A DNA stretch of 64,000 nucleotides, taken from assembly GCF_053078305.1 (NCBI RefSeq), contig NZ_CP166879.1, one strand, 5' to 3'. This document shows positions 28,455 to 44,709 of this stretch, piece after piece. Made by a program: the position numbers and the translations under genes. Every line of letters begins with the position of its first letter. Positions within the stretch are counted from its first letter, which is position 1. The notes beneath the pieces are model-generated. The model ran no database searches and was not told where the DNA came from. It saw nothing but the letters and a program-made list of their open reading frames with translations.

Positions 28455-28530
28455 TCGGGTCCTTTCCGGCATATGGACCCGTTACGGGGCGGCGACCTCG
28501 CGGATTTTCACTATTTATGAAAATTTTCCG
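28455..28530 (+). other. Lambdoid cos site (cosN GGGCGGCGACCT at 28487-28498 plus flanks)
   Basis: ACGGGGCGGCGACCTCGCGG..TTTATGAAAATTTTCC matches lambda cos; CCGGACATG repeats downstream. Confidence 0.65.
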
Positions 28531-31091: not shown

Positions 31092-31281
31092 ACTGCAGGC
31101 GCTGCGTCAGGCGCGCCTTGATTTATTAACCGGTAAACGGGTGGTGTCTGTCCAGAAAGATGGTCGCAGAATTGAATATACGGCGGCCTCTCTGGATGAG
31201 CTTAACCGTGCGATCAATGATGCTGAGTTGGTACTGGGGACAACCCGCCGTCGCCGTCGTCCGCTGGGAGTGAGGTTATGA
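31075..31281 (+). CDS. Head-tail joining protein (gpW-like)
   Basis: 68 aa; ...LTGKRVVSVQKDGRRIEYTAASL... Confidence 0.8.
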   Translation: MVTVAELQALRQARLDLLTGKRVVSVQKDGRRIEYTAASLDELNRAINDAELVLGTTRRRRRPLGVRL

Positions 31282-32150
31282 AACGAACGCCTGTCCTGAT
31301 TGATGTGAACGGCGTTCCGCTTCGGGAGAGCCTAAGCTACAACGGGGGCGGCGCAGGATTTGGCGGGCAAATGGCAGAGTGGTTGCCACCCTCGCAGAGT
31401 GCCGATGCGGCCCTGCTGCCCGCGTTGCGTCTGGGGAATGCCCGTGCAGATGATCTGGTGCGCAATAACGGAATAGCGGCCAATGCGGTGGCCCTGCATA
31501 AGGATCACATTGTCGGGCATATGTTTCTGATTAGCTACCGTCCGAACTGGCGCTGGCTGGGGATGCGGGAGACCGCGGCAAAAAGTTTTGTCGATGAGGT
31601 GGAGGCGGCCTGGTCAGAATACGCAGAAGGGATGTTTGGTGAGATCGACGTGGAAGGGAAACGCACGTTTACGGAATTTATCCGTGAAGGTGTGGGCGTT
31701 CATGCGTTTAACGGCGAAATCTTTGTGCAGCCGGTCTGGGATACGGAGAGCACGCAACTGTTTCGTACGCGTTTTAAAGCCGTGAGTCCGAAACGGGTGG
31801 ACACGCCAGGACACGGTATGGGGAACCGTTTTCTGCGGGCCGGTGTGGAGGTCGATCGATATGGTCGTGCCGTTGCGTACCATATCTGTGAGGATGATTT
31901 TCCTCACTCCGGGAGTGGACGATGGGAACGGATCCCGCGTGAACTTCTCACCGGGCGTCCGGCCATGCTGCATATTTTCGAGCCGGTGGAGGACGGGCAG
32001 ACCCGTGGGGCCAATCAGTTTTACAGCGTCATGGAACGGCTGAAGATGCTCGATTCCCTGCAGGCAACACAGCTTCAGTCGGCCATTGTTAAAGCCATTT
32101 ATGTCTATCATCTCCCCGTAGTTGTCCGCATCGTTCGCCAACTCCACTGA
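31278..32150 (+). pseudogene. Portal protein (gpB-like), N-terminal ~275 codons, interrupted near 32102
   Basis: Portal homology stops at ...QSAIVKAIY; the last 16 codons are read-through into inserted DNA. Confidence 0.75.
32091..32103 (+). repeat. Left att core AAAGCCATTTATG
   Basis: Direct repeat of 43930-43942 (one mismatch). Confidence 0.5.
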
Positions 32151-32225
32151 AACCCTTGCTGCGGCTGGAATGTCGTTTTCCATACTTTTGATGACCGTTC
32201 ATCACACTTCCAGGTTTTCGCGGTT

Positions 32226-32285
32226 TTGTGTATTGCAATGTGTATTGCAAATTGGCGATCGGGATGGGTGTGTATTGCAAATCTC
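32226..32285 (+). repeat. Three TGTGTATTGCAA repeats (putative integrase arm sites)
   Basis: Same motif occurs twice at 43838-43862 near the other junction. Confidence 0.4.
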
Positions 32286-32298
32286 TTGAGGGCTGTTA

Positions 32299-33540
32299 AT
32301 GGCTATTGAAAACAAACTCAGTGACAAACTGTTAAAGAGTCTTGTCGGAAAACGGCAGGACAAACAAAAAACAATAGCGGATGGGCGCGGGTTGTCTGTG
32401 CGTGTAAGCATGGTTGGGGGGATCAGCTTTGTTTTTTACTATCGTCTTGGTGGCAGGGAATCCCCTCCGGTATGGCTTACACTTGGGCGCTATCCTGATA
32501 TGTCTCTTGCAACAGCCAGGCGCATGCGTGATCAGTGCCGTGAGTGGCTGGCTGAAAATCTGGACCCCCGCAGGCAAATAAAACTTGCCGCCGAAAAAAC
32601 CATGCAACCAGTGACCGTAAGGGATGCGCTGTTTTACTGGTACGACAATCACGCCACAACAGCCAGAAAAGAGCATGAATATTTAATAAAACGATTTGAA
32701 AAGCATATCTTCCCCTATATCGGTGATATGGCTATAGAACAGTGCAAATTACACACATGGCTTGCCGTCTTTGACAGGATCAAAAAAAATGCGCCTGTTA
32801 TGTCTGGTGCAATTTTTCTTGATATCAAACAGGCGTTGCGTTTTTGTCGCGTCAGGCAATACATCGCGTGCGATCCCTTTGGCGATATTAACGTAAGTTA
32901 TGTCGGGCGCTCATCCGGTATAAGGGATCGCGTTCTTAATATCAATGAAACAGCGGATGTATGGTCTTATGCTTACGGTAATAATTTGCTGACACTGTCA
33001 TCAATACATAACAGAAGAATAATGGTTATCTGCCTGGTGTTTGGTTGCCGTCAGCAGGAGGCGAGGTTATCCACATGGGACGAATGGGATTTAAAAAACT
33101 GGGTATGGACAGTCCCAAAAGAGCACAGCAAAAACAAGGAGGCCATAGTAAGGCCTGTTCCTGACGGCATAAAACAATGGCTCGTTAATCTTTACGCAGA
33201 AACAAAAAATCGCGGTTATGTTGTCGGTTGTGCTTTGCAAAGGGCGACAATAACAGGGGCTGCAAACAGAATATGCAGGCGTCTTGGTCATGATATTAAT
33301 GGCTTGTGGTGCATACATGATTTCAGGCGCACATTTTCCACTGCGCTTAATGATATGGGGGCGGATCCTTATATTGTCGAACTTCTTTTAGGTCATAAAG
33401 TGAAAGGGGTTGCCGGTGTTTACAATAAAAGCAGGCATATAAAGAAAAAACTTGAGGTGCTTAATATGTGGGTTAATTACCTTAATACGATAGCAGGATT
33501 TAACAACAACGTTATCGAGCTTAATAAAGAGGTGGTGTGA
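32299..33540 (+). CDS. int: P4-type tyrosine integrase
   Basis: 413 aa; N-terminal LSDKLLKSL...GRGLSVRV arm-binding domain; C-terminal ...LLGHK...VYNKS. Confidence 0.85.
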   Translation: MAIENKLSDKLLKSLVGKRQDKQKTIADGRGLSVRVSMVGGISFVFYYRLGGRESPPVWLTLGRYPDMSLATARRMRDQCREWLAENLDPRRQIKLAAEKTMQPVTVRDALFYWYDNHATTARKEHEYLIKRFEKHIFPYIGDMAIEQCKLHTWLAVFDRIKKNAPVMSGAIFLDIKQALRFCRVRQYIACDPFGDINVSYVGRSSGIRDRVLNINETADVWSYAYGNNLLTLSSIHNRRIMVICLVFGCRQQEARLSTWDEWDLKNWVWTVPKEHSKNKEAIVRPVPDGIKQWLVNLYAETKNRGYVVGCALQRATITGAANRICRRLGHDINGLWCIHDFRRTFSTALNDMGADPYIVELLLGHKVKGVAGVYNKSRHIKKKLEVLNMWVNYLNTIAGFNNNVIELNKEVV

Positions 33541-33541
33541 T

Positions 33542-33799
33542 ATGGCAATTTATTCTCTTGTTGATGAAAACGATTTGCGCACAATGAAGGACATTGATCG
33601 GTTCATTCGTGAAAAAGAGTGCATAGCACTTACCACGCTGGCAAACTCAACACGCTGGAAAATGGAGCAGGCAGGTAAATTCCCGCGACGTATCAAGATC
33701 GGTGAACGTGCGGCAGGGTATCGACTTTCAGAGGTTCAGGCATGGATCCGTGGTGAGTGGCATCCTGGATGGAAACCTGGAAAAACAAAACAGCAATAA
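33542..33799 (+). CDS. alpA: AlpA-family regulator / excisionase
   Basis: 85 aa; directly after int. Confidence 0.7.
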   Translation: MAIYSLVDENDLRTMKDIDRFIREKECIALTTLANSTRWKMEQAGKFPRRIKIGERAAGYRLSEVQAWIRGEWHPGWKPGKTKQQ

Positions 33800-33853
33800 C
33801 CAGTAAATAACGCCCCTCATCAAGAGGGGTTTTTGTCTATAGGGTAAAACGCG

Positions 33854-34432
33854 ATGAATAAAAATATTGCCGTGACGGGCAAGGGGTACGCTCGTCCAGT
33901 GAAAAAATTCTGTGATATTCGTGATCTTGTCGTTCTGCGCTTTGATGGTGTGAGCGTTCGCGTGGTGTATGTGAACGGCGATCCGTGGTTTGTTGCCGTT
34001 GACGTGTGCGCTGCGCTGGAAATTGTTGATCACAAGGTTGCGTTACGCCGTCTCGATGATGATGAAAAGGGGGAGTGTTTAATACCCACCCCAGGTGGAA
34101 ATCAAACAATGCGAACGGTATGCGAGTCAGGGTTCTACAAACTAATCGCCAGAAGTCGGAAAGCTGTTACTCCTGGCACGTTCGCCCGTCGTTTCAGTAA
34201 CTGGGTATTCAGAAATGTGATACCAGGTATCAGAAAAACGGGGGCTTATGGTATCCCGTGGGGGGCATTACAGGATTTTTCCCGCCGTAAAGAGCAATAT
34301 CAAATAAGTGCCAGCGAGAAGGGGAGGGAGCTACAGGCATGTAAGCGCAAAAAACGTGAACTGGAGGAAGAAGAAAAAAGGCTGATACGTGAATATCAGC
34401 CTGAGTTTTACTTTGGTGAGCGTATTCAGTAA
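33854..34432 (+). CDS. Bro-N-domain protein (antirepressor-like)
   Basis: ...VVYVNGDPWFVAVDVCAALEI... Bro-N signature. Confidence 0.65.
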   Translation: MNKNIAVTGKGYARPVKKFCDIRDLVVLRFDGVSVRVVYVNGDPWFVAVDVCAALEIVDHKVALRRLDDDEKGECLIPTPGGNQTMRTVCESGFYKLIARSRKAVTPGTFARRFSNWVFRNVIPGIRKTGAYGIPWGALQDFSRRKEQYQISASEKGRELQACKRKKRELEEEEKRLIREYQPEFYFGERIQ

Positions 34433-34895
34433 CCACACGCGGTGCTGATTATACGGTACATCGTGTTAACCGAGAAGCTACCCACCAGCAAGGCAAAATC
34501 TTCTGCTAAAAAATGACATATGGCCAGTCGTCCGGAAAGCATGAAATTTTACAAAAATGGAAAATGAAGATTTTTATTGTGCTGGTGGGTAAAAACAAAA
34601 AGCGCCCCGTTGCCGGAGCGCCCTTGTGAACAATTAACCTGCTGCGAAAAAATTGGATCAGTGCAGGGAAATTATATCAACTGTGTGAAGAAGCGCCACA
34701 ATTGCCAGTTTAGCTTTGCGGCGAACGCGTCAATAAAGAATATTCTTTCTTTAAATTCTGTTTGTGTATTTTTTCGTAGTTTTTCGTAGTTTTTCGTAAG
34801 GAGAAAGAGCGGCGCGTATGCACCGCTAAGGAGTTTATTTTCATGACTTATGCAGCTTTCAATCTTAGCACCGCCGTAGCTGGTGGACAAGGCTA

Positions 34896-35123
34896 TCAGC
34901 CAGGCGGTCGGTTTTTAGTGGCTTTTAACCGCCGTGGGTATTTCTCGACAAAATCTTCAAGGGCAAATTTTTCTGGTGGCACTAAGCGCGGCGCTGGTGG
35001 TGGTATTTTTGTTCTGGTTAGTTCTTCCTCAAGTCTGGCGCAGGCTTCTAACTGCCTTTGCCGGATGATTTCATCATCTTGCGTTTGCGTGTCTTGTATT
35101 GGTGATAGTGTGTTGTTGGTCAT
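34896..35123 (-). CDS. Hypothetical protein
   Basis: 75 aa ORF downstream of putative repressor; weak. Confidence 0.3.
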   Translation of the reverse strand: MTNNTLSPIQDTQTQDDEIIRQRQLEACARLEEELTRTKIPPPAPRLVPPEKFALEDFVEKYPRRLKATKNRPPG

Positions 35124-35180
35124 GATACTGCCCTGTAAAGCAATGCGCCGGAGTACCTCACGCCACGGCGCTGATAGTGA

Positions 35181-35501
35181 TTATTCTGATTCTTGGGTCT
35201 TGCGACGCTGGAGTTCTTCGCGTGCAACGGTGACAAGTTGCCCGATTTCTTCCGCTGCTTTGATGCCGATTTGTTCGACCTTAGCCAGAGCATCCAGTGA
35301 AGACACAAGGGGATTTTCTCCGCTGCCTTCTGCCTGGCGGCGGGCGATTTCACCGCGCATGGCGGTTACTATGAATCCGGCGTTGCTTTCACCGTCCAGT
35401 TTTACGGATTCCATGCCTTCAATAACATCATGCGGGATCCGAGCTGTCAGTGATTGTGATTTTGCGTTTTTTGAACCTGTAGCCATCTGTAATCCTCTCA
35501 A
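35181..35501 (-). CDS. Putative satellite regulator/repressor
   Basis: 106 aa, divergent from operator-like region. Confidence 0.4.
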   Translation of the reverse strand: MRGLQMATGSKNAKSQSLTARIPHDVIEGMESVKLDGESNAGFIVTAMRGEIARRQAEGSGENPLVSSLDALAKVEQIGIKAAEEIGQLVTVAREELQRRKTQESE

Positions 35502-35683
35502 TGAAAGTGTAAGACAATATACACATAAAAAGTCTTACATAAAAGCATTGACATGTAAGCCACCTATAAATAAAGTTACTTACACCTTGTTAATGCAAGG
35601 TGCAGAAACGACGAAACCCGGCAGTGCGCTAACACTAACCGGGCTTCTAACCACCAACGATAGAAAGCGTATCGAGGTAGCTA
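35502..35683. promoter_or_regulatory. Divergent control region with palindromic TGTAAGAC/GTCTTACA operators
   Basis: tgtaagacaatatacacataaaaagtcttaca and ttgacatgtaagcc...agttacttacac. Confidence 0.4.
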
Positions 35684-36045
35684 TGAGAAATCATACCACA
35701 CACCCGCAAGGGCGGGACTCGCACAACCTGAATAAATACATCTGGCGTTTTCTGGCCCGAAAAAACCAGTTGATCGCCAGTGTCGAAAATAGCTATGATT
35801 CCCGCGCACCTCATAAAACGGGTGCCGGGATTGGCGTCCTGGGCAAAACTGAAGCGCATAACACGCGCCCCGCGTGTTTTTTTGTGCCGCATAGTCACAC
35901 CTTATCAATGGTGGGCTGTACGGGGGCGGAGCAATCCGCGCCGGTTTCTTCAGTGTCCGGTTACGCCAACCCTGTACAGTCCGCCACCAGCGAAATTGGC
36001 GTTTCCGGTGGCGGTTATCTTAACCACACTGAGGAGGCTGCCAAC
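35684..36045 (+). promoter_or_regulatory. Structured leader with terminator hairpin; homologue of rha leader at 6632-6930
   Basis: Conserved blocks plus hairpin ACACGCGccccGCGTGT followed by U7. Confidence 0.45.
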
Positions 36046-36237
36046 ATGGCTACTATCCCTACCCTTGTACATTCTCAAACCGCCTTTCTCTGGCGCTTTA
36101 TCATCTTTGGCGCGTCAGACCATCAAATCATCCACGTCACCGCCTGGACGGAACGCGAAGCGCGTAGCCGTTGCCCGTCCGGTTGTGTTGCTGTATTCGC
36201 CGCCCGTATTCGTCAGGAGGTGTGCCATGTGCAATAA
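36046..36237 (+). CDS. Small ORF sharing its first seven codons (MATIPTL) with rha
   Basis: GAGGAGG RBS; 63 aa; N-terminal nucleotides identical to rha start. Confidence 0.3.
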   Translation: MATIPTLVHSQTAFLWRFIIFGASDHQIIHVTAWTEREARSRCPSGCVAVFAARIRQEVCHVQ

Positions 36238-36484
36238 AACCACACCGGACGCAGCCGCCGCGCTCACTACACTGATGCACGCGCTGATTGATATTTCTGT
36301 TATTGCTGACAGGGCGCATAAGCACGCCACCAGTGAAACAGAATATGCCGGGGCTTTCGTTCCTCATTCGCTGGCGGTTATGCAACTTAGTGCTGATATG
36401 GCGCTGAATGAGGCCAAAGCTATCCTGATTTCTGATTGTGAAAATGGGGGGGGGTTATGCGTGATGATCGTTTTAATGCCCTGA
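36227..36484 (+). CDS. Hypothetical protein
   Basis: 85 aa, CAGGAGG RBS. Confidence 0.35.
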   Translation: MCNKTTPDAAAALTTLMHALIDISVIADRAHKHATSETEYAGAFVPHSLAVMQLSADMALNEAKAILISDCENGGGLCVMIVLMP

Positions 36485-36678
36485 AACAGGAGTTTGATGG
36501 TGCGCCTGATGATGCAGGTGATGCGCTTTCGTCAATATCCGAACTGATAAGAGTGGCCTTTTTCTTACTTGGCACGAAAGAATATAAATCAACTGGAATA
36601 GACGTACTGAATATTACTGCTGATTATGCGGAATATATGGCAGAAGTGGATTTAAGAAAGATAACGGACAGGGGGTAA
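36457..36678 (+). CDS. Hypothetical protein
   Basis: 73 aa, coupled. Confidence 0.35.
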   Translation: MRDDRFNALKQEFDGAPDDAGDALSSISELIRVAFFLLGTKEYKSTGIDVLNITADYAEYMAEVDLRKITDRG

Positions 36679-36679
36679 T

Positions 36680-36913
36680 ATGCGTGATATTTACCACGAA
36701 ACAATAGACCGCGCATTTAGTGCCCTTGCTTACGCTGAAGGTATGTACGAAATATTGCAAATGTGTCTGGAAACATTTGGCGATAATGAGCGTGATGTAA
36801 AGAAGGCGCGGATTATTAAATCACTGATAACTCTCCTTGAACCTGTAATAACAGAGTTGCAGGAAATAGACTTATTGCACGACAGATATAACGAACAGCA
36901 CACCGGAGAATAA
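36680..36913 (+). CDS. Hypothetical protein
   Basis: 77 aa, coupled. Confidence 0.4.
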   Translation: MRDIYHETIDRAFSALAYAEGMYEILQMCLETFGDNERDVKKARIIKSLITLLEPVITELQEIDLLHDRYNEQHTGE

Positions 36914-36918
36914 AAATA

Positions 36919-37218
36919 ATGAAACTTAAATATCCTGGCTTAACTGCCAGTGGCAACACTCACCCTAAATTTACGCGCGGTGATATTTACCGCGACCAGT
37001 ACGGCGGCACGGTAATGATTAAGGGCGTGGCGGGACGGTGCGTAACTTACCGCCGTGAAGGCTACGAATATGATTGCGTGATGCCTGTTTATCAGTTCCG
37101 GCGTGATTTTTCTCTGGTACAGACCGCGCCGCATAACGTGCCCACCAGCAACGCCAGGGCACGGGCAAACATCCAGAAGCTGAAAACCATGATTAACGGA
37201 TTCAGGGGTAAAAAATGA
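36919..37218 (+). CDS. Hypothetical protein
   Basis: 99 aa, stop overlaps helicase start. Confidence 0.4.
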   Translation: MKLKYPGLTASGNTHPKFTRGDIYRDQYGGTVMIKGVAGRCVTYRREGYEYDCVMPVYQFRRDFSLVQTAPHNVPTSNARARANIQKLKTMINGFRGKK

Positions 37219-38624
37219 AACTGGCACCGAACGTAAAACGATTACCGAAAGATAAATACACCGAAGCGGTTATTTTTGCGGGTATTGATGCTCACTCATT
37301 CGCAGAGCATTACATCATTGCACAGGCCAAAAAAGCAGGCGATCCAGTCCCTCCCGTTTATCTGGGGCGTTATCAGTTAAGCGAACTGGATAACCTCCAG
37401 ATTGTTGATGATGGGCGATACAGGGCGACGGTGATACGCGCCGGAAATATTGAAGAGCCGCAGCTGTTAACCATCGCCACGAAACTGGCGAGCGCCGGAG
37501 TCCAGGAGGCGCGGCTACTTTCTGAAAATTTCGAATTGCTGGAGGAATGGAGCGACCAGCTTCCACGGCTTAGGGAGGCATGGGAACGCGGGGAAAGCCT
37601 GGTCATGAAAAAAATTCCCCAGCGAAAAACCACGCTACCGATGAGCGTTGGATCTACCGGATACGACACACAGCTTGATTACGTGGTAAAGGGGATTATT
37701 CCGGCATCGTCGCTTTGCAGCATATACGGGGCGAGCGGTTCCTATAAATCATTCCTTGCCGGATCGTGGGCGTGTCACGTTTCCACGGGCCGCCAGTGGG
37801 GAGGCCGCAGGGTGGCGCATGGCGCTGTTCTCTATGTGGTTGGTGAAGGCGGTATCGGCGTTCCGCGTCGTGTAAAAGCCTGGGAGGTTGTGCACGGTGA
37901 GCAGGTGAAAAATCTGTATCTGGTAAACCGTCCCATCTTTCCGGCTGTCCCGCTTGATGTTGATGAACTGGTTATTGCTGCCAGTCAGGTGGAGAGGGAA
38001 ACGGGTAAACCTGTTCGCATGATTATTCTGGACACGCTGGCGCGTTGCTTTGGCGGCAATGATGAAAATGACTCCCGCGACATGGGGGCATTTATCCGTG
38101 GTTGTGACGAGCTTAAACGGCGCACAGGGGCTACGGTGCTGGTGGTTCACCATTCCGGCAAGGATGAAACAAAGGGGGCGCGTGGTTCCAGTGCATTTCG
38201 TGCATCACTGGACGCTGAATACCGGATACGCAGGGAGGACGCAGGAAGCGAAGCGCTGGTTATCTCATGCACCAAAATGAAGGACGCGGAGGAACTCAAA
38301 GAGGCTGCCTATGATTTGCGGGTGGTGGAGCTTTTTACCGACGCTGACGGGGAGTTAATTACGTCGCTGGTGGTGGTGGATAAGCCGCGCCCTCCCGTTG
38401 AACTGGAGCGCATCGAGGAGGCAGGCAACAAGACGGAAAACCATACCGCGCTATGGGGGTGCATCCGTTCACGCACACAGAACGGCGACAAGTGCACGAT
38501 CCCGCTGTTACGTGACGATATGAAAAAGCTGGGGTATGACACAAAACACCTTAAACGATGGTTAGCCAAACTGGAAAAAGACGACGTGATCTACATTGAC
38601 GGTGATGATGTAGGACCACTGTAA
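37215..38624 (+). CDS. Replicative ATPase/helicase (RecA/DnaB-like NTPase domain)
   Basis: 469 aa; Walker A GASGSYKS, Walker B ILDTL, ...VVHHSGKDETKGARGSSA... Confidence 0.75.
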   Translation: MKLAPNVKRLPKDKYTEAVIFAGIDAHSFAEHYIIAQAKKAGDPVPPVYLGRYQLSELDNLQIVDDGRYRATVIRAGNIEEPQLLTIATKLASAGVQEARLLSENFELLEEWSDQLPRLREAWERGESLVMKKIPQRKTTLPMSVGSTGYDTQLDYVVKGIIPASSLCSIYGASGSYKSFLAGSWACHVSTGRQWGGRRVAHGAVLYVVGEGGIGVPRRVKAWEVVHGEQVKNLYLVNRPIFPAVPLDVDELVIAASQVERETGKPVRMIILDTLARCFGGNDENDSRDMGAFIRGCDELKRRTGATVLVVHHSGKDETKGARGSSAFRASLDAEYRIRREDAGSEALVISCTKMKDAEELKEAAYDLRVVELFTDADGELITSLVVVDKPRPPVELERIEEAGNKTENHTALWGCIRSRTQNGDKCTIPLLRDDMKKLGYDTKHLKRWLAKLEKDDVIYIDGDDVGPL

Positions 38625-38826
38625 AAAGTGGGCATTAAAAGTGGGAAAGGTGGGCGATTTAACGTAATTTTAACAAAATCACCCACTTTCCCACGTGTAT
38701 ATATCCCAAAAAGTGGGCACTAAAAAAATACCTATGAAACAAGATGATATAAATCCCAAACTTCCCACGTTGGACGAAGTGGGAAAACGTAAAAAGTGGG
38801 CGAAAAAAGTGGGTAGAGGTGGGCGA
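38625..38826 (+). repeat. Iteron array (AAGTGGG-type repeats), putative satellite ori
   Basis: About nine AAGTGGG / CCCACTT copies immediately downstream of helicase gene. Confidence 0.5.
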
Positions 38827-39078
38827 ATGACTCAAAAACACAGAGACAGAACAGAGCCAAAATATAAAGCGTTAGACATGACAGAGCACGCTTTAAAGGT
38901 GGCAATCAGGGTAATAGACCGCCACACGCGGGAAGGATACGCGAAGGAACATCCCGACCTGATAAGCGCATTCATGACCACAGCGGCGGCAAACTTTGCC
39001 ACGCTGACAGAACGGGAGATAGCCGAAGCGGAACAGGTAACAACCATCAACGTTAAAACCGGAGAGGTGGAATCATGA
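38827..39078 (+). CDS. Hypothetical protein
   Basis: 83 aa from MTQKHRDR; upstream part of tracked ORF lies on iterons and is rejected. Confidence 0.35.
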   Translation: MTQKHRDRTEPKYKALDMTEHALKVAIRVIDRHTREGYAKEHPDLISAFMTTAAANFATLTEREIAEAEQVTTINVKTGEVES

Positions 39079-39485
39079 CAGCACAGATAGCCGCTTACGG
39101 GCGGCTGGTGGACGACCCGCAGGTAAAACAAACCAGCAAGGGCACACCGATGACGCTGGCGCGTATGGCGGTATCTCTGCCATGCAGCCAGGCACAGGAC
39201 GGGCAGGCTACGTTATGGCTATCAGTGATGGCATTTGGTAAGCAGGCCGACTTCCTGGCTAAACATCAAAAAGGCGATGTTGCCAGCGTATCCGGCACGA
39301 TGCAGGTAAGCCAGTGGACCAGACAGAACGGGGAAACGCGGCAGGGTTATCAGGTTATTGCAGACAGTGTAATCAGTGCCCGTGCTGCCCGTCCTGGCGG
39401 GAGCAGACGTACAACCACAGGCACACAGGGTAATCAGCCACCAGCGGGAGGCGATGACCCTTACGGTGACGGTATTCCGTTCTGA
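39075..39485 (+). CDS. SSB-like single-strand DNA-binding protein
   Basis: OB-fold-like N-terminus, Gly/Pro-rich tail ending DDPYGDGIPF. Confidence 0.55.
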   Translation: MTAQIAAYGRLVDDPQVKQTSKGTPMTLARMAVSLPCSQAQDGQATLWLSVMAFGKQADFLAKHQKGDVASVSGTMQVSQWTRQNGETRQGYQVIADSVISARAARPGGSRRTTTGTQGNQPPAGGDDPYGDGIPF

Positions 39486-39495
39486 GGGGGTGACG

Positions 39496-39768
39496 ATGGT
39501 ACATGACCGCATAGCGGAGGAACTCGAGGCAAAAGGCTTTTACCGGAGGGCGGCGGCGCGATGGGGTGAAGTTATGCAGCTGGTGGAGACAGACAAGGAA
39601 CGGCATCAGGTTACGATGCGACGGCTGGAATGTTCCAGGAAGGCACAGAGGCCACCGGAGCCGCCGGATAACTTCGGAGACCTGAAAAAAGCAGTAGATC
39701 GCACTTATGCCGAAATGGGTATGGATGGTGTAAGCGATGAAATATGGCGTAATTACCCAGACAGCTAA
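39496..39768 (+). CDS. Hypothetical protein
   Basis: 90 aa, GAGGGGG RBS. Confidence 0.35.
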   Translation: MVHDRIAEELEAKGFYRRAAARWGEVMQLVETDKERHQVTMRRLECSRKAQRPPEPPDNFGDLKKAVDRTYAEMGMDGVSDEIWRNYPDS

Positions 39769-39774
39769 TCAACA

Positions 39775-39846
39775 GCCGGAGAAATCCGGCTTTTTTGTAC
39801 CCAAAAAAAGCCCGATAAGTACAGGAGGCATCTTATCGGGCTTTTG
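39775..39846 (+). terminator. Two tandem intrinsic terminators ending the replication operon
   Basis: GCCGGAGAAATCCGGC+U6 and GCCCGATAAG...CTTATCGGGC+U4. Confidence 0.5.
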
Positions 39847-40007
39847 CATATGAGGTTTTTTTGGTGCACTGACACACATGATCGGGGTAATCATTTCATA
39901 ATTTGCAACACAACTCAACATCATTGCACAAAATGCAATCCTGATTATAATCAGAGCTGGATGAACATCCAGTTCTGATTTTTTAAGTCAAAGAGGAATT
40001 TCTTACT

Positions 40008-40214
40008 ATGGCTGAAGAGAAAAAAGGCGGTGTTTCGGTGTACATAAGCCCCGAAATCGTGGAGGTGCTCAAGCAGCGCCACAAAAAAAACTATGAGGCT
40101 GGCGTAGCGGCTGGACTGGATCCGCTGATGACGCCGGAGCCGTCGATAGGTTCACTTGTGCGCTCTTATTTACTTGCGGCGCTTGGGATGCATAAAAATT
40201 ATGGTGGTGAATAA
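40008..40214 (+). CDS. Hypothetical protein preceding capsid gene
   Basis: 68 aa, AGAGGAA RBS. Confidence 0.4.
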   Translation: MAEEKKGGVSVYISPEIVEVLKQRHKKNYEAGVAAGLDPLMTPEPSIGSLVRSYLLAALGMHKNYGGE

Positions 40215-41269
40215 TGACAGTAAAAGCAATGGCACTTACAACTAACCAGCTTTTCGCGTACCTGAATCGCGGGGATATTGCAGAATTTAAATTCAGTCCG
40301 CTGTTTACCACGCTGTTTTTCCCGAACGTGGCGACCTTCAACACCCAGAACATCATGCTGGACACCCTGGACATTGAAGAGGTTACGATGTCAGCGTTCT
40401 GTTCGCCTATGGTGGGTAGTCAGGTCCAGCGCGATAAAGGGTACGAAACCAGCACGATTAAACCAGGCTACATGAAACCCAAACACGAAATCGATCCAAC
40501 AAAAACCATCATGCGCATGGCTGGAGAAGATCCGGCACAGCTTAACGACCCTACCTACCGCCGTATGCGCCTGATTACTGGCAACATGCGCCGCCAGATA
40601 AACGCCATTAAAGCGCGCGTGGAATGGCTGGCGGTGAATGCGATAACGACCGGAAAAAACATCATTGAGGGCGAAGGCATAGAACGCTATGAAATCGACT
40701 GGAAAATACCGGAAAACTGCATCATAGAGCAGGCCAAGGGTAAAAAATGGTCCGAGCATGATAAAGATATTTACGATCCAATCTATGACATCGAACTATA
40801 CGCAGATCAGGCAGGTTGCCCCGCCAACGTCATGATTATGGGCGCTGAGGTATGGCGCACGTTACGCAGCTTTAAAAAATTCCGCGAACTGTACGATCTT
40901 TCCCGTGGTTCAGAATCCGCCGCAGAACTGGCCTGTAAAAACCTGGGTGAAGTAGTGAGCTTTAAAGGCTATCTGGGCGATATTGCCCTTATCGTCTATT
41001 CCGGCAAATACACTGACAGCGACGGTACCGAAAAATATTTCCTTGAGCCTGATTTGCTGGTCCTGGGTAACACCAACAATAAAGGGCTGGTGGCCTATGG
41101 TGCGATTATGGATCAGGAAGCGGTAAGAACGGGCGCAACGCAAAACATGTTCTACCCGAAAAACTGGATTGAAGACGGCGATCCGGCGATTGAGTACGTT
41201 CAGACGCACAGCGCACCGCAGCCGGTACCGGCAGATATTCGCAAATTTGTTACCGTCAAAATTGCTTAA
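40214..41269 (+). CDS. Major capsid protein paralog (gpE-like) encoded by satellite
   Basis: Shares blocks PGYMKPKHE, GEDPAQLNDP.YRR, VVSFKGY.GD.A.VV, DGTEKY with prophage E at 46646. Confidence 0.8.
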   Translation: MTVKAMALTTNQLFAYLNRGDIAEFKFSPLFTTLFFPNVATFNTQNIMLDTLDIEEVTMSAFCSPMVGSQVQRDKGYETSTIKPGYMKPKHEIDPTKTIMRMAGEDPAQLNDPTYRRMRLITGNMRRQINAIKARVEWLAVNAITTGKNIIEGEGIERYEIDWKIPENCIIEQAKGKKWSEHDKDIYDPIYDIELYADQAGCPANVMIMGAEVWRTLRSFKKFRELYDLSRGSESAAELACKNLGEVVSFKGYLGDIALIVYSGKYTDSDGTEKYFLEPDLLVLGNTNNKGLVAYGAIMDQEAVRTGATQNMFYPKNWIEDGDPAIEYVQTHSAPQPVPADIRKFVTVKIA

Positions 41270-41280
41270 CGGGGGATTCT

Positions 41281-41616
41281 ATGGACACTCCATACATTGA
41301 GTTATTTGCAGGCAGTCAGCAGGTATCCACGACGCTGGTACATTTTGCCGCTGATGCTGGCGTTATTCAGGAATTTACCCCGCTGATGCTGGCGGACAAT
41401 GGCGAGTTTAAGCCGTGGGATGGTCAGGAATCTGGCAAGGCTGTTTATCTGACCTCGTACCCCGTGGACACGTCAAAGCAGAAATCAGCACAGTGTTACA
41501 AGACGGGGATATTTAATATCGCCGCCGTAAACTGGCCTGAGAGCGCCGACACTGACGCGAAAAAATGCGCCGCCTTTGCGGGTTCTGGCGTATCCGTTCA
41601 GCCGCTGGCGCGATAA
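41281..41616 (+). CDS. Head decoration protein paralog (gpD-like)
   Basis: 111 aa; TPLMLADNG..KPWDGQ and YKTGIF motifs shared with prophage D. Confidence 0.7.
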   Translation: MDTPYIELFAGSQQVSTTLVHFAADAGVIQEFTPLMLADNGEFKPWDGQESGKAVYLTSYPVDTSKQKSAQCYKTGIFNIAAVNWPESADTDAKKCAAFAGSGVSVQPLAR

Positions 41617-41628
41617 GCAGGGGAAACG

Positions 41629-42042
41629 ATGGCAACGAATGAAAGCATCATGGCGCTACCGCTGGCGAGTAAATTTAAAGCAGAAGCGCGGGCAATGGCT
41701 GACAGAGGTTTATCAACCTACGAGGCCGTATATCAACTCAACAAACTGGAAGAGCAGGACAAGCCGCGCGCTGATGCGATTATGGCGCTTCATGAACATA
41801 ACGACTATCAGCCGCTGTTACGTGCAATGGCAAACGTGCCATGTATTAGCGTCGATAATGCTCGTGAAATCCTGAACATGACCATAGAGCAGGAGCGCCC
41901 AAAGGTTGCGCCGGAGCTTACCGCAGCCTTTGAAAACTTTATGGACATGCACAGCCCGAAAGCCGTATCACCCGGCATGGCATACGACGGCAGAAACCAG
42001 GGCGATGAAGGCGACGTCGATCGCATACTGAAAACCATCTGA
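41629..42042 (+). CDS. Scaffold-like protein (Nu3-like C-terminus)
   Basis: C-terminus ...AAFENFMDMHSPKAV... parallels prophage C/Nu3 tail ...ALFEHFMANHSPAAV... Confidence 0.5.
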   Translation: MATNESIMALPLASKFKAEARAMADRGLSTYEAVYQLNKLEEQDKPRADAIMALHEHNDYQPLLRAMANVPCISVDNAREILNMTIEQERPKVAPELTAAFENFMDMHSPKAVSPGMAYDGRNQGDEGDVDRILKTI

Positions 42043-42072
42043 CATAAGGCCGGAGAAATCCGGCTTTTTTTA

Positions 42073-42150
42073 CGGGTCCTTTCCGGCATATGGACCCGTT
42101 ACGGGGCGGCGACCTCGCGGTTTTTCGCTATTTATGAGCTTTTTTCGGGT
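42073..42150 (+). other. Satellite cos site (cosN 42104-42115)
   Basis: About 48 bp identical to prophage cos (GGGTCCTTTCCGGCATATGGACCCGTTACGGGGCGGCGACCTCGCGG), then divergent. Confidence 0.65.
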
Positions 42151-42236
42151 GCTGGTGGTGGTTTTGTTGTTCGCTCTATCTCTATGAATAAAAAGGGAAA
42201 GATAAAACCAATACACCAACCTGAAACATTACTTAA

Positions 42237-42791
42237 GTGGGGATATTGATGAAATCGCACCTGATGAACAAAAAAAACATGGCGCAAAGCTGCCGTGTAA
42301 GTGCGACAGCGTTCGACAAGTGGGGAGTGACTCCCGTTGAACGTAAAGGACGCGAGGCTTTTTACGATGTTGCCAGCGTGATAGACAATCGGGTAAGCAA
42401 TGCAATTAACCAGGTTACAAACGACAAAGGCGAGATTGATGATGATGAACTCTTACGAGTCAGGATCAGATTACTGACCGCCCAGGCTGAGGCGCAGGAA
42501 CTTAAAAACGAGCGCGATCGCGGTGACGTAATTGATACTGAGTTTTGCCTGTACGCGCTTTCAAAGCTGGCGAGTCAGATTTCTTCAATCATGGACAGTT
42601 TGCCGCTTACCATGCAAAGGCGCTTCCCGCAGATTACTCCCGCTATGCTGGATGGGCTTAAAAGGGAAGTGGTTAAAGCCTGTAATGCCAGTGCCACAGT
42701 TGCCGACAACCTCCCGAAGATACTGGCTGATTACCTGATGGAAACTACCGGAGACGTACCGGAGAAGTTGCTACAGAAGAAAGGCGAGTAA
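42237..42791 (+). CDS. Terminase small subunit homolog (Nu1-like; possible packaging redirector)
   Basis: ...FCLYALSKLASQISSIMDSLPLTMQRRFPQI... parallels Nu1. Confidence 0.65.
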   Translation: MGILMKSHLMNKKNMAQSCRVSATAFDKWGVTPVERKGREAFYDVASVIDNRVSNAINQVTNDKGEIDDDELLRVRIRLLTAQAEAQELKNERDRGDVIDTEFCLYALSKLASQISSIMDSLPLTMQRRFPQITPAMLDGLKREVVKACNASATVADNLPKILADYLMETTGDVPEKLLQKKGE

Positions 42792-42959
42792 CAGACGCGC
42801 AATTATTGAACAAAAGTAAGGCCCGACATGAAATCACCCAAAAATGCCTTTTTCATGCGTTTGTATGTCTGACCTTTTACGGTTTCGATATTATAAAAAA
42901 CAAATAGTTACGCTCGAGAGGTACCGACACGCATTTTTCAGGAAAATTTTCATAAACAG

Positions 42960-43020
42960 ATAAAAACCGCGAGGTCGCCGCCCCGTAACGGGCCATAATT
43001 CCAGGAAGGACCCGACGACA
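42960..43020 (-). other. Second, inverted cos-like site (cosN complement 42972-42983)
   Basis: Minus strand reads CCCGTTACGGGGCGGCGACCTCGCGG...TTTATGAAAATTTTCC. Confidence 0.5.
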
Positions 43021-43047
43021 CCAGGCTATCAGAACGATGAGGGCACA

Positions 43048-43329
43048 ATGACAGAAGCCGAACTACTGGGATTAATCCGCTACGTTACCGGAATCAGCCA
43101 GCAGCATGACGAACAGGCCACGCAGCCGGACAGCGTGACCGCTGAAAATTATGCGCGTGTTGTTGCTGAGGTGATGCGCCGTGATGGTATCCAGCTTAAT
43201 GATGCAGATATGCGCGACATACGGATCCGCGTTCTTGAAATGCTGGCCTACCGTCGCCGCGTGCAGACGTACAGGGAAAAAGCAAAAATAACGTACCAGT
43301 GGAAGAAGCCGGAGCGATTACGGCGGTAA
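43048..43329 (+). CDS. Hypothetical protein
   Basis: 93 aa. Confidence 0.35.
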   Translation: MTEAELLGLIRYVTGISQQHDEQATQPDSVTAENYARVVAEVMRRDGIQLNDADMRDIRIRVLEMLAYRRRVQTYREKAKITYQWKKPERLRR

Positions 43330-43929
43330 CTTGCTGATATTCCCGATAACGCAAAATTGCGCTCTGTCCTAACCCGTTGATATTTTCGGGAACAGCCAAC
43401 GGCTGAGGCCGGAACAACGATTATCTTTCAGATAGTCAGAGCTACGAAATTTTCGTAGTTTAATTACTCGCCAGTTTATCGTTAACTCGTTGATATTTTC
43501 GGTAACCTCAATTTGAGGAGATCGGAAACATAACCCTTCACATTCTGAATGGTTATAATGACCACTCAGACCATCAAGGCAACCATAACGAACATCGTTA
43601 CGGTTGGAGCTTTTACCCCACTGGGGGGAAGGTGCACATCTGGATCATCATTACCGTGATCAAGGGTATGTAAAACCCACCAGCCTGATTAACTGTTAAC
43701 CGGAAAAAAGCCAGGTAGCCAATCTCGATATGGGGATCCCCATATCGACATTAACGCCCCCTAGAACTGCGCATATCTGCATATAAAAACATCCACCAGC
43801 TTTATGACGGATGCCGCTCATCTGATAAATAATCGTGTATTGCAATGTGTATTGCGACTCCTTTAAACGATAGGTTTGAGCATTCGTAATGTACTGTTTT
43901 TAAATTTTATTTTTTCCTGTCTTTTCATA

Positions 43930-43942
43930 AAAGCCATGTATG
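43930..43942 (+). repeat. Right att core AAAGCCATGTATG
   Basis: Direct repeat of 32091-32103. Confidence 0.5.
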
Positions 43943-44709
43943 CAGCGACGATTGAAAGTGAACTTGATACCGAAAAGGCCTTTGAATATATCGCCGGTGC
44001 GCCGCAGGGGCAGAAGGATAATCCGCTTATTAATATTCTGGATAAGTTCTCCACCTGGTATGACACGAATATCGTGACGCTGGGCGGTGTCAAAATTCCG
44101 CACCTTTTCCCCGGTGATGATCTGAAACTTCAGACCGCGCAGGATTCAGACAATGGATTTTCGGCGCTTGAACAGGCGCTGCTGCGGTATATCGCCGCCG
44201 GTCTTGGCGTTTCCTACGAACAGTTGTCCCGTGATTACTCGAAGGTCAGTTATTCAAGTGCCCGCGCCTCCGCCAATGAGTCGTGGCGCTATTTTATGGG
44301 ACGACGAAAATTTATTGCAGCCCGGCTGGCCACGCAGATGTTTTCCTGCTGGCTGGAAGAGGCACTTCTTCGGGGGATTATCCGTCCGCCACGGGCACGT
44401 TTTGATTTTTATCAGGCGCGTTCAGCCTGGTCGCGGGCAGAGTGGATTGGCGCAGGAAGAATGGCCATTGACGGGCTCAAGGAGGTCCAGGAATCAGTGA
44501 TGCGCATTGAGGCCGGACTGAGCACGTATGAGAAAGAGCTGGCGCTGATGGGTGAGGATTATCAGGACATTTTCCGCCAGCAGGTCAGGGAATCCGCAGA
44601 GCGGGAAAAAGCCGGACTCTCACGTCCGGTGTGGATAGCGCAGGCGTATCAGCAGCAGATAGCAGAGAGCCGCAGGCCGGAAGAGGAGACAACACCACGT
44701 GAGACGTAA
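43930..44709 (+). pseudogene. Portal protein (gpB-like), C-terminal ~256 codons
   Basis: Resumes at ...AATIESELDTEKAFEYIAGAPQGQ...; the tracked ORF start at 43876 lies in inserted DNA. Confidence 0.75.

What the first reader, a model, noticed from the sequence alone, without database searches (positions are those of the whole stretch)
34740..34805. Tandem TTTTTCGTAG repeats, with related motifs and CGTTGATATTTTCGG direct repeats near the right end (43360-43510)
Three tandem 10-bp repeats lie in the region between the Bro-N gene and the putative repressor; a palindromic CTACGAAA/TTTCGTAG pair and two copies of CGTTGATATTTTCGG lie near the right end. These are candidate binding sites for a satellite regulator.
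Basis: seen in the sequence. Interest (0 to 1): 0.35.

Follow-up and report, generated by a model that had tools for sequence, protein, structure and literature searches.

The report
Orphaned excisionase-type repeat array in satellite
The three 10-bp repeats are real and look like the helically phased docking sites that small excisionase/regulator proteins (AlpA, TorI, Xis) use in phage satellites. Here they sit beside only a stub of their original alpA gene, so this is a fairly ordinary regulatory element whose present activity is uncertain.

Summary
TTTTTCGTAG, TTTTTCGTAG and TTTTTCGTAA lie at 34770-34799, the palindrome CTACGAAATTTTCGTAG at 43442-43458, and CGTTGATATTTTCGG at 43375 and 43488.

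The host element is an 11.8-kb helper-embedded PICI satellite inserted in the portal gene of a lambdoid prophage, a type described in 2023.

The array belongs to a rare cassette found in 6 of 5426 complete E. coli genomes. The cassette is: the last ~17 bp of an alpA gene, the array, a hairpin, then the ribosome-binding site and ATG of a long P4 eta-like ORF that runs across the isrK/C4 immunity RNAs.

In related satellites the homologous array has TTGTTCG units. The same 10-bp-phased units recur at attL and attR (next to the integrase arm sites), in the int-alpA region, and upstream of the capsid operon (8 phased pairs versus 0.23 in shuffles). Experimentally defined TorI sites are GTTCG at exactly this spacing.

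Best reading: a binding array for an AlpA-type recombination directionality factor and regulator. All three window units carry T instead of G at position 3, so the array may be re-tuned to the resident AlpA or may be a relic.

The right-end motifs are real and conserved, but they are separate features and do not co-vary with the array.

The parts
34770..34799 (+). Tandem array of three 10-bp units: TTTTTCGTAG, TTTTTCGTAG, TTTTTCGTAA. TRF calls 34766-34798.
   Evidence: Homologous arrays: L002 TTGTTCGTAG/TTGTTCGCGG/TTGTTCGTTA, L004 TTGTTTGTAG/TTGTTCGTGA, L015 TTGTTCGGAG/TTGTTCGCGG/TTGTTCGTTA.
34721..34737 (+). Stub of the 3' end of an alpA gene (GCGAACGCGTCAAT plus the former stop codon, now AAA). 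The recombination joint lies at 34706/34707.
   Evidence: Alignment A3. In L004 the same sequence encodes the last codons (...ERVN*) of an intact 64-aa PF05930 AlpA.
34808..34827 (.). GC-rich hairpin AGCGGCGCGTATGCACCGCT, terminator-like for the minus-strand YlcI/75-aa operon.
   Evidence: minus-strand terminator-like site. The sequence is identical in L002, L004 and L015.
34827..34845 (+). Shine-Dalgarno sequence TAAGGAG, a 9-nt spacer, and the ATG of the long eta-like ORF.
   Evidence: Conserved in L002, L004 and L015.
34843..36237 (+). 464-aa open frame, P4 eta/kil-like. It runs antisense to the YlcI/75-aa genes, spans the isrK and C4 RNAs, and ends in an Icd/Kil-like peptide.
   Evidence: Pfam Phage_ASH at residues 318-411. 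The frame is also open in L002 (460 aa), L004 (304 aa) and EcCICFT073 (428 aa). The P4 parallel is described in PMC10111431.
35806..35991 (+). isrK-like element (35806-35882) and C4/CI-type immunity RNA (35904-35991).
   Evidence: Rfam: 66.0 and 77.6 bits, both above the gathering scores.
33542..33799 (+). Resident alpA gene (85 aa, PF05930). It is 44-50% identical to the AlpAs of the elements that carry TTGTTCG arrays.
32214..32233 (+). attL arm: phased pair GTTTTCGCGG TTTTGTGTAT directly 5' of the doubled integrase arm motif. In L014 the first unit is TTTTTCGCGG.
   Evidence: Local-shuffle p ~0.04.
32227..32250 (+). Doubled HE-PICI arm motif TGTGTATTGCAA x2 in attL. The crossover core AAAGCCATTTATG is at 32091-32103.
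   Evidence: The published motif and its 81/132-bp spacing rule are in PMC10111431.
43911..43930 (+). attR arm: phased T-rich pair TTTTTCCTGT CTTTTCATAA abutting the crossover core (43930-43942).
   Evidence: Local-shuffle p ~0.05. Conserved in L014.
43834..43857 (+). Doubled arm motif in attR.
43442..43458 (.). Palindrome CTACGAAATTTTCGTAG. A separate feature, not shown to be related to the array.
   Evidence: Conserved in L005-L008 and absent from L001, L009, L013 and L014.
43325..43527 (+). Three copies of the module TAACnnGyTGATATTyyCGrnAAC plus a short hairpin, starting at 43325, 43368 and 43481.
   Evidence: (D4).

Best explanation
The array is a set of helically phased direct-repeat sites for an AlpA-family winged-helix protein. 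AlpA is the satellite's recombination directionality factor and transcriptional activator, and it works like TorI, Vis, Xis, Cox and Apl.

Origin (shown). The array came in as part of a mobile ~250-bp module: a Bro-gene fragment, an alpA 3' stub, the array, a hairpin, and the RBS/ATG of the eta-like ORF. [quoted passage not shown]

Proposed role (inferred). The array lies about 44 bp upstream of the start codon of the long ORF, and translation of that ORF should carry RNA polymerase through the C4/isrK immunity terminators, as in P4. AlpA oligomerising on the array would then control transcription entering that ORF, either as an activator-dependent promoter or by modulating read-through at the adjacent hairpin.

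Current state (inferred). All three units in this window read TTTTTCG where relatives read TTGTTCG. This fits either re-tuning to the resident AlpA, whose own att arms carry T-rich phased pairs, or homogenisation by slippage of a site that is no longer used.

Status of each step. Shown: the anatomy, the homology, and the distribution of arrays in relatives. Inferred: that AlpA is the binder. Speculative: the regulatory outcome.
For: 1. The three units are exactly 10 bp apart and in the same orientation.
2. Alignment A3 shows positional homology to the arrays of L002 and L004. L004 has an intact PF05930 alpA ending 46 bp upstream of its first full unit.
3. In L008, phased TTGTTCG pairs number 8 against 0.23 in shuffles. 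They lie at attL (4-6 units abutting the doubled GGTGTAGTYAAT arm motif), after alpA, upstream of the capsid operon, and at attR. L009 has 5 pairs against 0.15.
4. EcCICFT073 carries 5 phased units in the int-alpA intergenic region, plus 4 at attL and 2 at attR. Its alpA promoter region is reported to be AlpA-activated (PMC6092414).
5. The capsid-upstream triple array is the conserved block in an otherwise diverged intergenic region across three elements (A5).
6. The doubled arm motifs occur only at att arms, whereas the arrays also occur at internal regulatory regions. This fits a regulator rather than the integrase.
7. Experimentally mapped TorI sites are GTTCG/GATCG/GTCCG, with three at an exact 10-bp period in KplE1 attL. 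Apl sites are likewise described as direct repeats one helical turn apart (abstract of PMC7498355).
8. Ten-bp-phased arrays also lie upstream of alpA in Klebsiella and Citrobacter satellites (L023, L024). Among periods that are not multiples of three, period 10 is the most enriched around 37 alpA loci.
9. The T-rich phased pairs in both att arms of this HE-PICI type have p ~0.045 each in local shuffles.
Against: - No binding data exist for any PICI AlpA in the literature searched.
- The G at unit position 3 is nearly invariant in the relatives' arrays but is T in all three window units.
- The cognate alpA is only a stub here, and also in L002 and L015. In those two elements the array kept TTGTTCG units despite different resident AlpAs, so co-variation with the resident AlpA is not general.
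- 64 E. coli genomes carry the same int-alpA-BroN module without the cassette, so the array is dispensable for this satellite type.
- No sigma-70-like promoter is predicted next to the array on either strand.
- The att-arm T-rich pairs are weak matches (11/14) in AT-rich DNA.
Confidence: 0.5

Rival explanations
1. Functionless relic. The array was once an AlpA site set, but in this element it merely rides between the alpA stub and the hairpin/RBS/ATG that the eta-like ORF needs. Its perfect units reflect recent replication slippage, not selection.
For: - The cognate alpA is reduced to ~17 bp.
- Copy number varies between elements, 2 in L004 against 3 in the others.
- Units 1 and 2 are identical, as expected after slippage.
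- The otherwise conserved G at position 3 is lost in all units.
- Satellites with the same int-alpA lack the cassette entirely.
- The cassette is rare: 6 of 5426 genomes.
Against: - The three-unit array has persisted in three contexts with different int/alpA modules, with ~8% divergence around it.
- The change to T3 parallels the T-rich phased pairs at this satellite type's own att arms.
Confidence: 0.3
2. A function that needs no sequence-specific binding protein. One option is intrinsically bent DNA: three T5-6 tracts phased at 10 bp. The other is a U-rich leader (UUUUUCGUAG x3) in read-through mRNA that enhances translation of the eta-like ORF, for example through ribosomal protein S1 or Hfq.
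For: - T6/T5/T5 tracts at an exact 10-bp period are the textbook arrangement for A-tract curvature (established knowledge).
- The array lies 28-73 nt upstream of a strong RBS, and no plus-strand terminator separates it from the upstream genes.
Against: - Homologous arrays (TTGTTCG) lack A/T tracts of 4 or more, so curvature is not the conserved property.
- The same units occur at att arms and promoters, where a DNA-level protein site is expected.
- The RNA fold of 34740-34870 shows nothing beyond the hairpin (z = 0.74).
Confidence: 0.1
3. One satellite regulator (the 106-aa YlcI/YnfO-type protein or another repressor) binds both the left array and the right-end palindrome and direct repeats, linking the two ends of the element.
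For: - The exact 9-mer TTTTCGTAG is shared between the array and the palindrome half-site.
- The palindrome is conserved across elements that are only ~79% identical around it.
- By sequence inspection, the YlcI/YnfO protein looks like a ribbon-helix-helix DNA binder (my inference; Pfam gave no hit).
Against: - The palindrome is unchanged in elements whose arrays are TTGTTCG-type (L008), and it is absent from others that have arrays (L009, L013).
- The 9-mer match has a chance expectation of about 0.09.
- The CGTTGATATTTTCGG repeats belong to an unrelated module family.
- No array units occur in the divergent promoter region 35500-35800, where a repressor's operator would be expected.
Confidence: 0.07
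4. Replication iterons bound by the satellite's initiator.
For: - Short direct repeats are typical of iterons.
- The P4 alpha-protein iteron TGTTCACC (recalled from memory) resembles some relatives' units such as TTGTTCAC.
Against: - The array is 2.4 kb upstream of the replicase gene.
- A separate iteron-like set (AAAAAGTGGGC, about 84-bp spacing) lies just after the RepA helicase gene at 38623-38808, the usual PICI ori position.
- The same arrays occur in elements with three different replicases: RepA helicase, primase, and DUF927.
Confidence: 0.02

Closest known systems
TorI binding sites in attL of the KplE1/CPS-53 prophage (E. coli K-12)
   Same: Both are direct repeats with a (G/T)TTCG-type core at an exact 10-bp period, three in a row, placed next to integrase arm-type sites. 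Binding also regulates transcription: TorI represses intS (PMC2951348; sequence read).
   Different: TorI is only 15-26% identical to these AlpAs and does not reach the PF05930 threshold. The window units read TTTCG, not GTTCG. The window array is internal, 2.6 kb from attL, not in an att arm.
Satellite phage P4 Vis (an AlpA homologue) with the eta/kil nested ORF and CI RNA immunity
   Same: The gene order is the same: int, then alpA/vis, then a long translated ORF containing the immunity RNA (C4/isrK hits), ending in a Kil/Icd-like peptide. Vis is both an excisionase and a regulator of the promoters of this region (my knowledge, plus PMC10111431).
   Different: According to PMC10111431, in P4 eta is translationally coupled to vis. 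Here an array plus a hairpin separate the alpA stub from the ORF start. The ORF also overlaps two antisense genes (YlcI/YnfO and a 75-aa gene) for which I recall no P4 counterpart.
Apl (phage 186), Cox (P2) and Xis (lambda) binding arrays
   Same: All are recombination directionality factors that bind several direct repeats one helical turn apart, both at att and at a promoter region (abstract of PMC7498355; established knowledge).
   Different: The protein families and site sequences differ. Those arrays overlap known promoters, whereas no promoter is predicted at this array.
AlpA of EcCICFT073 and cf-PICI EcCIEDL933
   Same: Same protein family (44-50% identical), same satellite architecture, and two cosN copies. 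[quoted passage not shown] Phased TTGTTYS units lie in that promoter region and in both att arms.
   Different: No AlpA operator has been defined in the papers I could search. EcCICFT073 has no array between alpA and its long ORF, which starts 53 nt after alpA.

Membership tests
RDF (excisionase/AlpA/TorI-type) binding-site array | Several co-oriented direct repeats spaced one helical turn (10-11 bp) apart | tested here: met
   Three units start at 34770, 34780 and 34790, period 10, 95% matches.
RDF (excisionase/AlpA/TorI-type) binding-site array | Unit core matches sites defined for a related RDF or the element's other sites (GTTCG / TTGTTCG) | tested here: inconclusive
   Homologous arrays in L002, L004 and L015 carry GTTCG, as TorI sites do. 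The window units read TTTCG, with T for G at the otherwise near-invariant position.
RDF (excisionase/AlpA/TorI-type) binding-site array | The same units recur in the att arms beside integrase arm-type sites | tested here: inconclusive
   Clearly met in the relatives L008, L009, L001 and L013. In the window only weak T-rich pairs are present, at 32214 and 43911 (11/14 matches, p ~0.045 each).
RDF (excisionase/AlpA/TorI-type) binding-site array | A cognate RDF gene in the same element | tested here: met
   A PF05930 AlpA lies at 33542-33799 (E = 5e-14). However, the alpA originally adjacent to the array survives only as a ~17-bp stub.
RDF (excisionase/AlpA/TorI-type) binding-site array | Physical, cooperative binding by the RDF | not testable with these tools
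   This needs EMSA, footprinting or ChIP.
Helper-embedded PICI (HE-PICI; Tommasini et al. 2023) | Integrated inside a lambda late-gene cognate of a prophage, co-oriented with it | tested here: met
   The lambda-family portal gene is split: Pfam profile positions 2-241 match at 31278-32150 and positions 235-354 at 43876-44709. Terminase lies upstream and an S49 protease downstream.
Helper-embedded PICI (HE-PICI; Tommasini et al. 2023) | Doubled tgTGTATTGCa motif about 81 bp upstream and 132 bp downstream of the attP crossover | tested here: met
   The motifs lie at 43834-43857 and 32227-32250. The cores AAAGCCATKTATG at 43930 and 32091 give the published spacings.
P4/P1-type RNA immunity with nested eta/kil ORF | C4/CI-type RNA and its target-like element inside a long translated ORF that ends in Kil/Icd | tested here: met
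   Rfam C4 scores 77.6 bits and isrK 66 bits. The 464-aa frame is open across them and carries a Phage_ASH domain. The frame is also open in three relatives.
P4/P1-type RNA immunity with nested eta/kil ORF | Translation of the long ORF suppresses immunity-dependent termination | not testable with these tools
   Inferred from P4 (Forti et al. 1999, as cited in PMC10111431).
Replication-origin iterons | Located at or next to the replicase gene, and specific to the replicase type | tested here: not met
   The array is 2.4 kb upstream of repA. A different repeat set lies at 38623-38808. The arrays occur with three different replicase types.

The most novel reading that the evidence does not exclude
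After module shuffling, the array was re-tuned to a new master regulator. All three units switched from TTGTTCG to TTTTTCG, matching the T-rich phased pairs in the att arms of this HE-PICI type (TTTTTCGCGG in attL of L014, TTTTTCC/CTTTTCA in attR). The array would then be a live AlpA operator controlling entry into the eta/immunity ORF. More broadly, phased TTGTTCG 'AlpA boxes' would define the so far unmapped AlpA regulon of PICIs and cf-PICIs: attL, attR, the alpA promoter, and the capsid operon.
Probability: 0.2. Interest if true: 0.45.

Novelty: new member of a known kind. Interest (0 to 1): 0.3.

Why it matters
AlpA is the switch that a helper phage flips to induce Gram-negative PICIs and cf-PICIs, yet I found no defined AlpA operator in the searchable literature. 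The phased TTGTTCG/GTTCG arrays seen here at att arms, in the alpA promoter region and upstream of the cf-PICI capsid operon give a concrete and testable candidate for that operator, and so for the AlpA regulon. For this window the yield is modest. The array is one rare, possibly vestigial instance, and it illustrates how small regulatory cassettes are shuffled between satellites.

Tried and rejected
- Right-end region as the packaging site: rejected. The exact lambda cosN sequence GGGCGGCGACCT lies elsewhere, at 42104 (+) and 42972 (-), with the prophage's own copy at 28487. The 43330-43900 region has no match in the phage collection.
- Array or right-end motifs as a known RNA: no Rfam hit at E <= 1. 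Folding 34740-34870 is unremarkable, z = 0.74.
- Sigma-70 promoter at the array: none predicted on either strand.
- Array as part of the integrase arm sites: rejected. The doubled arm motifs are distinct and occur only at the att arms.
- Wider sampling of the cassette. The exact hairpin/RBS 25-mer gave 0 hits in 100,044 species-representative genomes and 1 metagenome contig, L015.
- The 93-aa and 184-aa right-end proteins: no solved-structure relatives, so no clue to what binds the right-end modules.
- The 34433-34706 stretch. I first read it as non-coding DNA with a minus-strand small RNA. It is at least partly a fragment of a Bro-network ORF that is in frame in EcCICFT073. The small-RNA idea remains untested.

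Full report
**Observation**

The array is real. Positions 34770-34799 read TTTTTCGTAG TTTTTCGTAG TTTTTCGTAA, preceded by a partial T-rich copy. Tandem Repeats Finder reports period 10, 3.3 copies, 95% matches and score 59.

The right-end motifs are also present. The palindrome CTACGAAATTTTCGTAG lies at 43442-43458. There are two exact copies of CGTTGATATTTTCGG, at 43375 and 43488, against 0.14 expected.

With one mismatch allowed, TTTTCGTAG is not enriched in the window: 16 matches against 14.4 expected. The sequence link between the left array and the right-end palindrome therefore rests on a single extra exact 9-mer.

**Context**

The element is a phage satellite inserted in the lambda-family portal gene of a lambdoid prophage.
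- The portal N-terminal part is at 31278-32150 and the C-terminal part at 43876-44709.
- Terminase lies upstream and an S49 protease downstream.

The satellite encodes, in order:
- integrase (32299-33540), AlpA (33542-33799, PF05930) and Bro-N (33854-34432);
- a minus-strand YlcI/YnfO-type gene and a 75-aa gene;
- an Icd-like peptide, a RepA helicase and SSB;
- capsid and decoration proteins, and a TerS-like protein.

It matches the helper-embedded PICIs of Tommasini, Mageeney and Williams (PMC10111431).
- Their doubled motif tgTGTATTGCa occurs at 32227-32250 and 43834-43857.
- With the cores AAAGCCATKTATG at 32091 and 43930, the published 132-bp and 81-bp spacings are reproduced.
- Rfam finds isrK and C4/CI-type immunity RNAs at 35806-35991, both above their gathering scores.

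**What the array sits in**

Only 6 of 5426 complete E. coli genomes carry the 34700-34890 cassette. By contrast, 64 genomes carry the same int-alpA-BroN module in a portal gene without it.

Alignment with three homologues (L002, L004, and the metagenome contig L015) gives the following anatomy.
- 34721-34737 is the last ~17 bp of an alpA gene. Its stop codon TAA has become AAA.
- The array follows.
- Next comes an invariant hairpin (34808-34827), which is terminator-like for the minus-strand operon.
- Then come TAAGGAG and an ATG at 34843.

In L004 the alpA gene is intact (64 aa, PF05930), and a two-unit array (TTGTTTGTAG TTGTTCGTGA) lies about 45 bp downstream of its stop codon.

In the window, L002 and L015, the same module lies behind three different int/alpA modules. 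That module comprises a Bro fragment, the stub, a three-unit array, the hairpin and the start codon. It therefore moves as a unit.

The ATG at 34843 opens a 464-aa frame.
- The frame runs antisense to the YlcI and 75-aa genes and across isrK and C4.
- It ends in the Icd/Kil-like peptide and carries a Phage_ASH domain.
- The frame stays open in L002 (460 aa), L004 (304 aa) and EcCICFT073 (428 aa, starting 53 nt after alpA).

This matches the P4 arrangement summarised in PMC10111431, in which translation of eta, downstream of the alpA homologue vis, prevents immunity-dependent termination.

**What the homologous arrays are**

In the relatives the units are TTGTTCG-N3. The same 10-bp-phased units recur at specific places.
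- L008 has 8 phased pairs against 0.23 in dinucleotide shuffles:
  - attL has 4-6 units ending 3 bp before the doubled GGTGTAGTYAAT motif;
  - further arrays lie after alpA and upstream of the capsid operon;
  - attR has 3 units next to the doubled motif.
- L009 has 5 pairs against 0.15.
- EcCICFT073 has 5 phased units in the int-alpA intergenic region, plus 4 at attL and 2 at attR. Its alpA promoter region is reported to be AlpA-activated (PMC6092414).

Three further observations point to a regulator rather than the integrase.
- The capsid-upstream triple array is the conserved block in an otherwise diverged spacer across three elements.
- The doubled motifs occur only in the att arms, as expected for integrase arm sites.
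- The arrays also occur at internal regulatory regions.

Comparable sites are known experimentally. TorI sites in KplE1 attL are GTTCG/GATCG/GTCCG, and I read three of them at an exact 10-bp period in the K-12 sequence. Apl sites are likewise described as direct repeats one helical turn apart.

Beyond E. coli:
- Klebsiella and Citrobacter satellites carry runs of 3-5 ten-bp-phased units upstream of alpA;
- around 37 alpA loci, period 10 is the most enriched period that is not a multiple of three.

I therefore read these arrays as AlpA-type RDF/regulator sites. The papers I could search define no AlpA operator.

**Is the window's array active?**

This is uncertain. All three units carry T where relatives have a nearly invariant G.

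Evidence that the array is still in use:
- The resident AlpA is 44-50% identical to the AlpAs of TTGTTCG-type elements and differs in the presumed recognition region.
- The att arms of this HE-PICI type carry T-rich phased pairs. The attL pair is GTTTTCGCGG TTTTGTGTAT (TTTTTCGCGG in L014), directly 5' of the arm motif. The attR pair is TTTTTCCTGT CTTTTCATAA, abutting the core. Each has p ~0.045 in local shuffles.
- These pairs allow the reading that the array was re-tuned to the resident AlpA.

Evidence that it is a relic:
- L002 and L015 kept TTGTTCG units behind other AlpAs.
- Units 1 and 2 are identical, as slippage would produce.
- No promoter is predicted at the array.
- Sister elements lack the cassette altogether.

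A relic, or an effect through DNA bending or a U-rich leader, therefore remains credible.

**Right-end motifs**

The right-end region is not the packaging site. Exact cosN copies lie at 42104 and 42972, as inverted 72-nt arms flanking the TerS-like gene. EcCICFT073 is reported to have two cosN copies as well.

The 43330-43830 non-coding region is shared by satellites with different integrases and different packaging modules.

The palindrome is conserved in L005-L008. It is absent from L001, L009, L013 and L014, and it does not change with the array type.

The CGTTGATATTTTCGG copies are the cores of a ~40-nt module.
- The module reads TAACnnGyTGATATTyyCGrnAAC followed by a 4-6-bp hairpin.
- The hairpin stems differ in sequence but stay paired: GCAAAATTGC, AGCCAACGGCT, CCTCAATTTGAGG, CCCCCATTGGGGG, CCTGCAATGCAGG.
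- It occurs 2-7 times per element, always on the plus strand.
- Its function is unknown.

**Verdict**

The array is best classed as a new, possibly vestigial, member of the known class of RDF binding arrays. The right-end motifs are separate conserved features. Interest is modest. The most useful product is a testable candidate AlpA operator for PICIs and cf-PICIs.

Noticed in passing
window 31278-32150 and 43876-44709 (element about 32104-43929): The satellite interrupts the lambda-family portal gene of a lambdoid prophage. It is a helper-embedded PICI of the kind described in PMC10111431. 64 of 5426 E. coli genomes carry the same int-alpA in a portal gene.
   Followed up: yes
window 42104-42115 (+), 42972-42983 (-), 28487-28498 (+): Two exact lambda cosN copies, in inverted 72-nt arms (42073-42144 and 42943-43014), flank the satellite's TerS-like gene. 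The prophage's own cosN is at 28487. Two cosN copies were reported for EcCICFT073; the inverted arrangement around the gene is notable.
   Followed up: partly
window 34843-36237 (+): A 464-aa open frame runs antisense to two annotated genes and across the isrK and C4 RNAs, ending in an Icd/Kil-like peptide. It is kept open in four diverged elements although most of the predicted protein looks like nonsense. This suggests selection for translation itself, as for P4 eta.
   Followed up: partly
window 43325-43527; L008 14169-14550; L014 21792-22130; L013 14651-14850: A family of ~40-nt modules (TAACnnGyTGATATTyyCGrnAAC plus a small hairpin with co-varying stems) is repeated 2-7 times on one strand. 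It lies after the conserved 93-aa gene at the right end of PICIs that have different integrases and packaging modules. Function unknown.
   Followed up: partly
window 43560-43760: A highly conserved terminal non-coding block is shared by all right ends compared. It includes a 32-bp near-perfect palindrome, AATCTCGATATGGGGA/TCCCCATATCGACATT, at 43721-43752. No Rfam or phage match.
   Followed up: no
window 34598-34681 (- strand): An extended -10 promoter-like TGATATAAT (plus-strand 34670-34681) is followed about 45 nt later by a strong intrinsic terminator (34625-34598, then TTTTTGTTTTT). This could give a ~70-nt minus-strand RNA. The stretch is 93-99% conserved in many E. coli genomes, but it is also an in-frame part of the long ORF in EcCICFT073.
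   Followed up: partly
window 38623-38808: AAAAAGTGGGC repeats about 84 bp apart lie directly after the RepA helicase gene. This is the likely replication origin.
   Followed up: no
window 39923-39952: An inverted repeat ATTGCACAAAATGCAAT overlaps the -35 region of a TGATTATAAT extended -10 promoter upstream of the capsid operon. The same arrangement is present in EcCICFT073. The ATTGCA half-sites resemble the TGTATTGCAA arm motif.
   Followed up: no
window 39775-39796 and 42049-42070: Two identical terminator hairpins (GCCGGAGAAATCCGGCTTTTTT) bracket the capsid module.
   Followed up: no
window 19758-20009: A tRNA-Met(CAT)/Arg(TCG)/Arg(TCT) cluster. From my own knowledge, such clusters are typical of the late regulatory region of lambdoid and Stx-type prophages.
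   Followed up: no
L023 3474-3670 (K. pneumoniae ATCC 13883); L024 444-650: Upstream of alpA there are three consecutive 10-bp-phased arrays with different units: CATTCAACAG x4-5, GACACGTAAC x3 and TGTTCATCA x5.
   Followed up: no
L003 1735-2904 (E. coli RM10466): A related satellite with a different AlpA type (HTH_17-like) is inserted in a prophage terminase large-subunit gene.
   Followed up: no
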